Of a stretch of DNA of 64,000 bases, positions 58,380 through 59,615 are shown piece after piece. The position numbers and the translations under genes were made by a program. Location of the stretch: positions 96,001 to 160,000 of the forward strand of contig CAWFGE010000010.1 of the NCBI GenBank assembly GCA_963815195.1, read 5' to 3'. The notes under the pieces were generated by a model that saw nothing but the letters and a program-made list of their open reading frames with translations, was not told where the DNA came from and did not search any database. Source of the DNA: an uncultured Planctomycetaceae bacterium. GTDB lineage: Bacteria > Planctomycetota > Planctomycetia > Planctomycetales > Planctomycetaceae. How positions within the stretch are numbered: position 1 is the stretch's first letter; every line of letters begins with the position of its first letter.

Positions 58380-59387
58380 TCAGTCATCTTCTTCCTCCCA
58401 CTCCTCGGGGCGGTAGTCCGGCTCGTTGTTGGGCCCGATCCAATAATCGGATTTCTCATAATCCGGGTAGCCTCCCAAATGCTTGAGTCCGTCTTCGTCG
58501 AATTCCTCGAAGCCTTCATATTCATCGTAGCCTTCGACCCATTCGCCGTCGACCTGCCGTTTGCCTTGCGTGTCGATGTGCCCGTCGTCATAGAGGATCT
58601 CATCATCGTACGACAGGAACTCCGGCTCCGGGCGTTCGCTCTTTTTCAGATAGCTCGTCAAGGGCAGGTTGCCGTTCTCGTGTTCCAGCTTGTCTCCAAA
58701 CCGGAACAAGAGCCGCTCCCAACCGTCCCGGCTGAAGGGATTCTGCGAAAGCACGATCCGCTTGAGGCCCGGCAGCCGGCCCTCCGCCAGGAGCATGTCC
58801 AGGCTCAAGTCCGTCAATCCCGCGTCGACCAGGCCGAGTTCTTGGGCGTTTTCCAAGTAACGCGACTTCAATAACCCGGCGAGCCCCGCGTCCCCCAATC
58901 GGTTGTGCCTGAGATCGAGTTTCGCGAACCGCGACAACGCCCGCCAGCGGGAAAGCGGCCCGAGGACGTTGGGCACATTCCATAACCGGAGCGAACCCAG
59001 CGGCCCCAACTGCCGAAACGTGTCGAACGAACTCATCAACGTCCCGGCATCGACGCTGAGATGCTCCACAAAACCCCGCCGATATTTCCAGCCGCGCACC
59101 AGACCCCGCCGGGACCGAACCAATCCTTTGAGGGACGATTGATTGAGCAGTTGATGAAGCGGAGCGTCCCAGACCTTGCGGTATTCCTTGAGCAGTTCGC
59201 GCTGGCGGTTTTCCATTTCCGCCCGCCACGAATGCTGCCGGGGCAGGCGGTCGAGGGCGATCTGCACTTGAATAAACTCCGCCCGCGGATCGCCATGCTC
59301 CCGGTACCAGTCGGCAAACACCAGCCGCAGGTCCAAATCTTCCGGGGCATCCAGCATGGCTTGAAACAACTGGCTTTCGAGGCTCAT
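58380..59387 (-). CDS. TIGR02996 domain protein with LRR-like repeats and an acidic tail
   Basis: DAPEDLDLRLVFADWYREHGDPRAEFIQVQ, YRRGFVE, LDLRHNRLGDAG. Confidence 0.9.
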   Translation of the reverse strand: MSLESQLFQAMLDAPEDLDLRLVFADWYREHGDPRAEFIQVQIALDRLPRQHSWRAEMENRQRELLKEYRKVWDAPLHQLLNQSSLKGLVRSRRGLVRGWKYRRGFVEHLSVDAGTLMSSFDTFRQLGPLGSLRLWNVPNVLGPLSRWRALSRFAKLDLRHNRLGDAGLAGLLKSRYLENAQELGLVDAGLTDLSLDMLLAEGRLPGLKRIVLSQNPFSRDGWERLLFRFGDKLEHENGNLPLTSYLKKSERPEPEFLSYDDEILYDDGHIDTQGKRQVDGEWVEGYDEYEGFEEFDEDGLKHLGGYPDYEKSDYWIGPNNEPDYRPEEWEEEDD

Positions 59388-59536
59388 CACTTCCCCGCGA
59401 TTGTCAAAGGCCCAATTCTCGCGATAGACTGGCGGCAACGTCCGACCCTGTATTCGTATATTCCGTTATGCGCCAAGCCCGCTCGATTTTCAATCATTGT
59501 CCAAACGAGGGCCGACGCAACCTTCCAACGAATCCT

Positions 59537-59615
59537 GCCCCGTTCGTCTAAGAGTAAGACAATCGGCGTTAGCACAATGAACCGATAGATGGGGGTGCAA
59601 CTCCCCCACGGGGCC
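59537..59615 (+). ncRNA. tRNA-Glu-like RNA with an expanded (15-nt) anticodon loop and no readable anticodon
   Basis: Acceptor GCCCCGT/ACGGGCC + A, D-arm GTCT/AGAC, anticodon stem ATCGG/CCGAT, 4-nt variable loop, T-arm GGGGG-TGCAACT-CCCCC. Confidence 0.75.

What the first reader, a model, noticed from the sequence alone, without database searches (positions are those of the whole stretch)
59537..59615. Orphan tRNA-Glu-like RNA with no readable anticodon and a co-varied elbow
Seen: a complete cloverleaf between the divergent TIGR02996 and PQQ-propeller genes. Acceptor 59537-59543 pairs with 59608-59614 (6/7, C2-C71 mismatch) with discriminator A59615. D stem is 4 bp, anticodon stem 5 bp, variable loop 4 nt, T stem 5 bp. 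The anticodon loop is 15 nt (CGTTAGCACAATGAA) instead of 7 and can extend the arm (CGTT/AATG, AA bulge, AGCAC loop). The D loop has A18-G19 instead of GG and the T loop has TGC instead of TTC. No CCA is encoded. Known: G18-U55 and G19-C56 form the tRNA elbow, and the ends and short variable loop resemble bacterial tRNA-Glu. Inference: both partners of the 18-55 contact changed while G19-C56 and all stems were kept, which suggests selection on shape rather than decay. It may be a non-decoding aminoacyl carrier, a decoy for anticodon nucleases or RNA-repair enzymes, or an RNA with an 8-nt insert that is processed out.
Basis: partly seen in the sequence, partly recalled or inferred. Interest (0 to 1): 0.85.

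Follow-up and report, generated by a model that had tools for sequence, protein, structure and literature searches.

The report
tRNA look-alike paired with LRR protein
This is a real, conserved tRNA-shaped RNA that almost certainly cannot read codons; it belongs to a family of tRNA look-alikes in planctomycete bacteria that usually sit head-to-head with one particular leucine-rich-repeat protein, and the pair may act as bait against enzymes that attack tRNA.

Summary
The cloverleaf at 59537-59615 is real. Corrections: the acceptor is 7/7 and the discriminator is C59615. The missing CCA is normal in this genome (encoded in 2 of 87 tRNAs), and the A18/G55 elbow also occurs in ordinary-looking array and phage tRNAs. 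It is not an orphan. I found 42 distinct relatives with strong stem covariation. Most carry loops resembling real anticodon loops (CAU, GUC, GGC, GCU, UCG) on one shared non-cognate body; five, including this one, have an elongated arm with no anticodon. The family is linked to the divergent gene: a TIGR02996-LRR subfamily with an Arg-rich insert has the RNA directly upstream in 12 of 19 loci, against 0 of 13 for ordinary TIGR02996 genes. All four insert proteins with an acidic tail have a long-armed RNA, beside them or elsewhere in the genome. Best reading (about 40%): a non-decoding bait or competitor for tRNA-attacking nucleases, held by the LRR protein. Binding, expression and function are untested. 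Glu carrier and intron readings are unlikely. Not found in Rfam or in the papers searched.

The parts
59537..59615 (+). tRNA-shaped RNA gene, long-arm member of the A18/G55 family; 7-bp acceptor 59537-43/59608-14, N73 = C59615
   Evidence: 73.3 bits with model R2; only match in the window
59546..59560 (+). D arm, 4 bp + 7-nt loop with A18 (59553) and G19 (59554)
   Evidence: U-A to C-G compensatory change in G001
59562..59586 (+). elongated anticodon-position arm: 5 bp + 15 nt that fold into 4 further pairs, an AA bulge and a 5-nt loop; no U33, no anticodon
   Evidence: loop sequence not conserved in G001 (10 of 15 differ)
59591..59607 (+). T arm with UGCAACU loop (G55 = 59597, C56 = 59598)
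   Evidence: G55 and C56 in 42 of 42 family RNAs
58380..59387 (-). divergent partner gene: TIGR02996 head, Arg-rich insert, ribonuclease-inhibitor-like LRR, acidic tail (ATG at 59387; a longer TTG start at 59438 is possible)
59073..59171 (-). codes the subfamily-specific Arg-rich insert segment (residues 90-122 of P0003), candidate RNA-binding surface
   Evidence: mean length 33 aa, net charge +7.1, n=54; ordinary members 18 aa, +2.0, n=80
58383..58622 (-). codes the acidic C-terminal tail (38% Asp/Glu in the last 80 aa), found only in proteins whose RNA partner is long-armed
59401..59430 (+). weak sigma-70-like site (TTGTCA-18-TAGACT, 9 of 12); possible promoter of the RNA, not established
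   Evidence: 1 found, 0.2 expected; no terminator found

Best explanation
The element is a trans-acting, non-decoding tRNA look-alike and the RNA half of a two-part module with the divergent Arg-insert TIGR02996-LRR protein. Shown: the fold, the family, the covariation, the varied anticodon-like loops on one body, the genomic link to this protein subfamily, and the match of long-armed RNA with acidic-tailed protein. Inferred, in falling certainty: the RNA is transcribed and matured like a tRNA (about 0.85); it works together with the protein (about 0.8); the protein binds it through the basic insert (about 0.6); host synthetases mostly do not charge it (about 0.7). The module then presents tRNA-shaped bait to tRNA-attacking enzymes such as anticodon nucleases. 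Seven-nt-loop members offer host-like loops to be cut; long-armed members such as this one keep the tRNA body but have no cleavable anticodon and act as competitors. The LRR either traps the attacker or senses the event (about 0.4 overall).
For: 42 distinct family RNAs: G55, C56, A58, A14 and C2-G71 in 42 of 42, D-loop AG in 41 of 42, G3-U70 in 0 of 42; only 14 of 42 have a normal-length arm with U33. Among 35 scored earlier, N73 was G13/C9/U8/A5, and U33 was in 15 of 23 seven-nt loops against 69 of 74 host tRNAs. Covariation on 26 RNAs: 98.4% of cells paired, 16 of 21 pairs with two-sided changes, score 0.553 against 0.195 shuffled and at most 0.085 slid. The triplets CAU, GUC, GGC, GCU and UCG recur in separate loci while positions 32-33 drift, so something reads the loop but not as a ribosome would. 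RNA-first: 4 of the 5 pattern hits outside the genus have a divergent TIGR02996 gene. Protein-first: 7 of 14 loci found by the protein alone have the family RNA directly upstream, and 2 more have other odd tRNA-like RNAs beside the gene. Ordinary TIGR02996 genes: 0 of 7 fetched loci and 0 of 6 paralogues in G000. Four of the five RNA-less insert genes lie in genomes that hold the RNA elsewhere. G003 shows neither gene nor RNA (85% complete). The acidic tail occurs in 4 of 19 insert proteins, each with a long-armed RNA adjacent or, in G001, on another contig. LRR part: best structural match is ribonuclease inhibitor 4per, Z 12.4, rmsd 4.2, 158 aligned, nearly tied with other LRRs. Precedent: YrlA was proposed as a competitive inhibitor of an anticodon nuclease (PMC7790460, passage).
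Against: No expression, binding, charging or cleavage data. Five of 19 insert genes have no adjacent RNA, and most G000/G001/G002 copies stand alone (6 of 8 are not even in a tandem pair and only 1 of 8 is beside an insert gene). Eight of the 12 linked loci form one clade (99/99), so there are about five independent lineages. The clade of acidic-tailed proteins is weakly supported (80/57). One array (L147) holds a long-armed copy beside a protein without the tail. No nuclease, RtcB, Ro60 or Band-7 gene among the flanking ORFs scanned, and no PADLOC match for three insert proteins. The RI-like fold is shared by many LRRs and shows no function. 14 of 42 RNAs look canonical enough to enter a ribosome. 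The alignment behind one search was fitted to the structure.
Confidence: 0.4

Rival explanations
1. A small inducible spare-tRNA cassette, like an L-array, whose 7-nt members help translation under stress; the divergent protein is its regulator and the long-armed copies are tolerated derivatives.
For: Tandem arrays of up to five or more copies; 7-nt members reach the Rfam tRNA cut-off, 35-63 bits; A18/G55 occurs in array tRNAs with proper identity; L-array tRNAs are induced and charged in Anabaena (PMC8421152, passages); head-to-head layout is typical of regulator and target (general knowledge).
Against: Ala-anticodon copies lack G3-U70, Ser-anticodon copies lack the long arm, N73 is free (identity rules recalled); 28 of 42 lack a normal arm with U33; some loci hold only a long-armed copy (window, L050, L095); RNA and gene both persist after separation in G001.
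Confidence: 0.2
2. The RNAs act on the host's own translation: as uncharged mimics that occupy tRNA-binding sites and signal stress, or as mis-charged tRNAs that mistranslate; the protein sequesters or releases them.
For: Diverse anticodons on one body resemble allo-tRNAs, some of which function in translation (PMC5389517, passages); the GUC class mostly has G73 and the full GUC triplet, which AspRS could read (recalled).
Against: Long-armed and U33-less members cannot decode; no synthetase-like gene among scanned neighbours.
Confidence: 0.15
3. Non-ribosomal aminoacyl (glutamyl) carrier.
For: Glu-like core: G1-C72, U11-A24, A46, no position 47; 5' end nearly identical to an array tRNA-Glu(UUC) of G000.
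Against: The strong Glu determinants are U34, U35, C36, A37 and all are missing; C2-G71 instead of U2-A71; U13-A22 here; no aminoacyl-transferase neighbour; a carrier would not need a panel of conserved triplets.
Confidence: 0.08
4. Decaying pseudogenes or remnants kept as integration sites.
For: Tyrosine-integrase islands of about 21 and 30 kb sit in the anticodon loop of the CAU copy in G399 and G444; G399's copy is split.
Against: All four non-loop differences between the window and G001 are compensatory; family-wide covariation; the G444 island restores a full copy; no integrase beside the window copy.
Confidence: 0.05
5. A tRNA with an intron or 8-nt insert that is removed, or a cis-acting leader of the downstream gene.
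For: 15 = 7 + 8; no terminator before the PQQ gene 55 nt downstream.
Against: Long loops vary from 11 to 16 nt with no shared sequence; by inspection, removing 8 nt from the window and G001 loops gives no common U33-bearing anticodon; downstream genes differ and are often convergent.
Confidence: 0.06

Closest known systems
YrlA Y RNA with Ro60/Rsr (Rfam RF02553)
   Same: tRNA-shaped non-decoding RNA encoded beside a repeat-protein partner; proposed competitor of an anticodon nuclease (PMC7790460, passage)
   Different: No Rfam match; plain cloverleaf with free 5' and 3' acceptor ends; partner is TIGR02996-LRR, not Ro60; varied anticodon loops
[quoted passage not shown]
   Same: predicted RNA strongly resembling a tRNA, tied to one protein family, unvalidated
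   Different: No Band-7 or RtcB gene among scanned neighbours; sequence not comparable because the primary paper and its supplements were not held
Allo-tRNAs and irregular tRNA polycistrons (Mukai et al. 2017, PMC5389517, passages)
   Same: many anticodons on a non-cognate body; polycistrons; some not used in translation; near conflict genes
   Different: Those have 8/4 or 9/3 acceptor branches and long variable arms and come from other phyla; these are 7/5 with a 4-nt loop and A18/G55
L-array tRNAs (Santamaria-Gomez et al. 2021, PMC8421152, passages)
   Same: probable source of the body and of the A18/G55 elbow; patchy distribution; tandem layout
   Different: L-array tRNAs keep cognate identity and are charged; these share one body, 1 to about 5 copies, with a fixed protein neighbour
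TIGR02996 repeat-companion proteins; ribonuclease-inhibitor-type LRR
   Same: head domain above the curated cut-off; RI/NLR-like LRR fold
   Different: subfamily with a basic insert of about 15 aa and, here, an acidic tail; no described function (0 papers hold the term TIGR02996)

Membership tests
canonical decoding tRNA (RF00005) | cloverleaf with 7/4/5/5 stems | tested here: met
canonical decoding tRNA (RF00005) | 7-nt anticodon loop with U33 | tested here: not met
   15 nt, G at the second position; ARAGORN 0; no RF00005 match. Seven-nt relatives do pass
tRNA-Glu | U34, U35, C36, A37 | tested here: not met
   no anticodon; determinants from PMC9976931 passage
tRNA-Glu | U11-A24, U13-G22:A46, no residue 47, G1-C72, U2-A71 | tested here: inconclusive
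   U11-A24, A46, missing 47 and G1-C72 present; U13-A22 and C2-G71 differ
tRNA-Glu | glutamylation by GluRS | not testable with these tools
   needs an assay
Y RNA (YrlA) | match to the Rfam Y RNA models | tested here: not met
Y RNA (YrlA) | adjacent Ro60 gene | tested here: not met
   none among flanking ORFs scanned
b7a-tRNA | adjacent Band-7 and RtcB genes | tested here: not met
   none among flanking ORFs scanned
b7a-tRNA | sequence similarity to published members | not testable with these tools
   paper not held
allo-tRNA | 8/4 or 9/3 acceptor branch and long variable arm | tested here: not met
   7/5 and 4 nt in the window; 7/5 consensus in the family
tmRNA | tag reading frame, ARAGORN or Rfam match | tested here: not met
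TIGR02996 domain protein (partner) | HMM score above 29.05 bits | tested here: met
   51.2 bits
described anti-phage defence system | PADLOC model match | tested here: inconclusive
   none for three insert proteins; library dates from 2023
ribonuclease inhibitor | binds and inhibits an RNase | not testable with these tools
   only the LRR fold is shared

The most novel reading that the evidence does not exclude
An RNA-baited immune receptor: a bacterial LRR protein with a signalling head holds interchangeable tRNA look-alikes that display a panel of host anticodon loops on an uncharged scaffold, and it traps or reports incoming tRNA nucleases. This would be an RNA version of the integrated-decoy principle, with the long-armed RNA and acidic-tailed protein as a co-evolved uncleavable variant.
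Probability: 0.25. Interest if true: 0.92.

Novelty: new variant of a known kind. Interest (0 to 1): 0.72.

Why it matters
It gives a first testable ligand for a subfamily of TIGR02996 proteins, a large planctomycete family with no function in the papers searched. It defines a tRNA look-alike family that ARAGORN either misses or labels as Met, Asp, Ala, Ser, Gly or Arg tRNA, which distorts tRNA inventories. If the bait reading holds, it adds an RNA-based defence against tRNA-cutting toxins. The natural set of anticodon-swapped bodies is also a ready test of what an A18/G55 elbow permits.

Tried and rejected
Patterns had a miscounted gap and found nothing even in G000; they carry no information (redone). 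The phylum-wide search with model R1 matched ordinary tRNAs in 148 of 151 genomes and scored only 32 candidates per genome, so it does not measure the family's range. Sequencing runs: no RNA holder listed; the one DNA run laid does not cover the element; neither is evidence. No match in annotated phages or plasmids; no insert protein in viral contigs. The 7 viral pattern hits were five-plus-one tRNAs with normal anticodons and one uncalled tRNA-like RNA, so they show the elbow, not the family. Insert protein not found in 121 genomes of family f4 and in 1 of 131 of f3; these searches score only part of the candidates. The N-terminal 114 residues folded alone (pLDDT 88.5) gave no informative match (best Z 5.2), which does not show a new fold; the Atlas gave only unnamed planctomycete clusters. 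The convergent HEAT gene of f5 loci has no tblastn match in G000, so it is not a core part. No complex prediction was run: the tool does not score RNA partners. Paper searches; none listed a paper describing this family. Papers seen: passages of 10.1101/312249, PMC7159879, PMC4810234, PMC8421152, PMC9976931, PMC7609411, PMC7790460, PMC5389517; no supplements opened, and supplements of the allo-tRNA and b7a-tRNA papers could hold related sequences.

Full report
Observation. The sequence folds as a cloverleaf in both MFE and centroid (-31.3 kcal/mol, z -3.12). The D, T and anticodon-position stems, the 15-nt loop, A18-G19 and the UGC T loop are as described. Two details are wrong: the acceptor is a perfect 7 bp and N73 is C59615. 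ARAGORN calls nothing and Rfam gives only chance matches. Lack of CCA means nothing here: 2 of 87 parsed tRNAs of the genome encode it.

The elbow. A18 with G55 is true covariation but a recurring alternative. Among 311 distinct ARAGORN calls in the fetched loci (29 unparsed, 5 with other D loops), the counts were AG with G55 36, AG with U55 2, GG with G55 4, GG with U55 231, GG with C55 4. These loci were fetched with models of this family, so they are enriched for the swap, and the 36 include family members. The rest are array and phage tRNAs with ordinary anticodons. In G000, 83 of 97 are GG/U55 and 3 are AG/G55. Two earlier AI notes say the same for phage tRNAs. The G18-Psi55 and G19-C56 contacts are described in PMC4810234 (passages); searches for A18 with G55 listed no paper on the swap.

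A family. G000 has four copies on four contigs, G001 two, G002 two in tandem; a strict pattern found none in 197 other genomes of the family or in G003. The G001 counterpart lies on another contig than its TIGR02996 gene and has unrelated flanks (25 of 60 and 22 of 60 identical). It differs at 14 of 79 positions, 10 in the loop and 4 in two compensatory pairs. A looser pattern over 185,579 species genomes gave 6 stretches, all titled as Planctomycetota. Covariance models R1 and R2 collected 42 distinct RNAs (I dropped truncated copies, array tRNAs, viral hits and the GG/UUC RNAs of L140 and L141 before counting). On 26 of them, 98.4% of cells pair and 16 of 21 pairs show two-sided changes; the score is 0.553 against 0.195 in shuffles and at most 0.085 when slid (the alignment was fitted to the structure). 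On an unfitted MAFFT alignment of 8, acceptor and T stems pair 100%.

What is kept and what is free. G55, C56, A58, A14 and C2-G71 are invariant in 42 of 42; G3-U70 never occurs; N73 takes all four bases. Only 14 of 42 have a normal-length arm with U33. Most loops resemble real anticodon loops, some identical to those of G000 tRNAs (CUCAUAA, UUGCUAA, CUGGCAG, CUUCGGA). The triplets CAU, GUC, GGC, GCU and UCG recur across loci, and in the GUC class positions 34-38 stay fixed while 32-33 take five different forms. Many CAU copies have bulged stems. Five RNAs, including this one, have 11-16 nt in place of the loop; four of the five fold into a longer arm with a 4-7 nt cap. By recalled identity rules, Ala anticodons without G3-U70, Ser anticodons without a long arm and Arg anticodons without A20 would not be charged by their own synthetases. 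The body resembles array tRNA-Glu, but the strong Glu determinants are in the anticodon (PMC9976931 passage) and are absent.

The partner. Four of the five pattern hits outside the genus have a TIGR02996 gene head-to-head with the RNA; the fifth is an array tRNA-Glu. These proteins share an insert before the family's W-x-[YF]-x-R-G motif. It is present in 54 of 161 proteins held and raises segment length from 18 to 33 residues and net charge from +2.0 to +7.1. Searching with the insert region alone and counting identical loci once gave 19 loci. Twelve have the family RNA directly upstream on the other strand, in 1 to 5 copies. Two (L140, L141) have different odd tRNA-like RNAs with a normal elbow beside the gene; in L141 one body occurs twice with two anticodons. 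Five have none. Of the 14 loci found by protein alone the split is 7, 2, 5. Seven fetched loci of ordinary TIGR02996 genes and six such paralogues in G000 have no family RNA near them. Four of the five RNA-less genes lie in genomes that carry the RNA elsewhere; the fifth is on a 3-kb contig. Eight of the twelve linked loci are one clade, so the link rests on about five lineages.

Matched subtypes. Four of 19 insert proteins end in an acidic tail (36-38% Asp/Glu; others 17% or less): window, G001, L191 and L095. Three have a long-armed RNA as sole neighbour and G001 has it on another contig. Within the genus, tailed protein and long-armed RNA are in G000 and G001; a second protein clade (99/97) and 7-nt CAU copies are in G000 and G002; G003 shows none. 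This is four incomplete, related genomes, so it is a hint, but it points to action in trans. One array (L147) breaks the rule with a long-armed fifth copy and no tail.

The protein. AlphaFold (pLDDT 81.8) gives a helical head, a long helix ending in the insert, a short LRR solenoid and a low-confidence tail. The LRR matches ribonuclease inhibitor and NLR-type repeats about equally; the head alone matches nothing clearly. No PADLOC match. In 8 of 12 linked loci, all of the one clade, a GAACC-N15/16-(G/C)YGTC motif lies about 15-35 nt before the start codon (background 0.015 per kb); it resembles an ECF promoter (recalled) and is absent in the window.

Mechanism. Something selects the tRNA shape and the central loop letters, but not U33, arm length, discriminator or synthetase identity. 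Ribosomal decoding and glutamyl transfer fit this poorly. Enzymes that dock on the tRNA body and cut at the loop fit it better; known anticodon nucleases target, among others, the fMet loop and GUN anticodons (recalled). A basic insert in a neighbouring LRR protein is the natural holder. I therefore read the module as bait plus holder or sensor, with the long-armed form as an uncleavable competitor, as proposed for YrlA. That last step has no direct evidence, and no nuclease or repair gene lies near; I give it 0.4. A spare-tRNA cassette with its regulator (0.2) and action on the host's own translation (0.15) are the main rivals.

Novelty. tRNA-shaped RNAs tied to a protein are a known kind (YrlA-Ro60, b7a-tRNA, allo-tRNA polycistrons), but the family fails the tests for each that I could run, and the nine paper searches listed no description of it. 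The b7a-tRNA paper was not available, so overlap there is not excluded. I score it as a new variant of a known kind, interest 0.72.

Noticed in passing
G399:C1:7678660-7699905 (L178, L179); G444:C1:8175120-8205641 (L180, L181): Islands of about 21 and 30 kb with a tyrosine integrase are inserted in the anticodon loop of the CAU-type family RNA; the G444 island supplies a new 5' half and restores a full copy, the G399 island leaves it split.
   Followed up: partly
L056:120-2220 (G354), L070 (G304), L055 (G252): tRNA arrays in which many members carry the A18/G55 elbow; a few array tRNAs elsewhere have C55.
   Followed up: partly
G000:C12:573308 and C8:349980: Array tRNA-Ala(CGC)-like genes with G3-U70 and A18/G55 that ARAGORN misses; the C8 copy has an insertion in the variable region.
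   Followed up: no
L141:1138-1286 and 2123-2270 (G065): A duplicated pair of odd tRNA-like RNAs with a normal elbow flanks the insert gene on both sides; one body carries CCA in one copy and ACG in the other.
   Followed up: partly
L140:2332-2409 (G052): tRNA-like RNA with an irregular anticodon arm between an insert gene and a second TIGR02996-like ORF.
   Followed up: partly
L047, L049, L112, L148, L179, L181: A HEAT-repeat gene convergent with the RNA array in family f5 loci; not found in G000.
   Followed up: partly
G000:C15:674540-675250 (L143): Second insert-subfamily paralogue without an adjacent RNA, sister to the G002 gene.
   Followed up: yes
L190:155-229: Viral tRNA-like RNA with A18/G55 and an irregular anticodon arm, not called by ARAGORN.
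   Followed up: no
L037:1808-2004: Cobalamin riboswitch about 130 nt downstream of the two G002 copies.
   Followed up: no
L050:1420-2919: The gene downstream of the RNA has a Pfam ATLF-family domain match.
   Followed up: no
window:55938-56486: OmpH-like ORF upstream of lpxC and lpxA; the Pfam match stops at model position 113 of 141, which may mean a frameshift.
   Followed up: no
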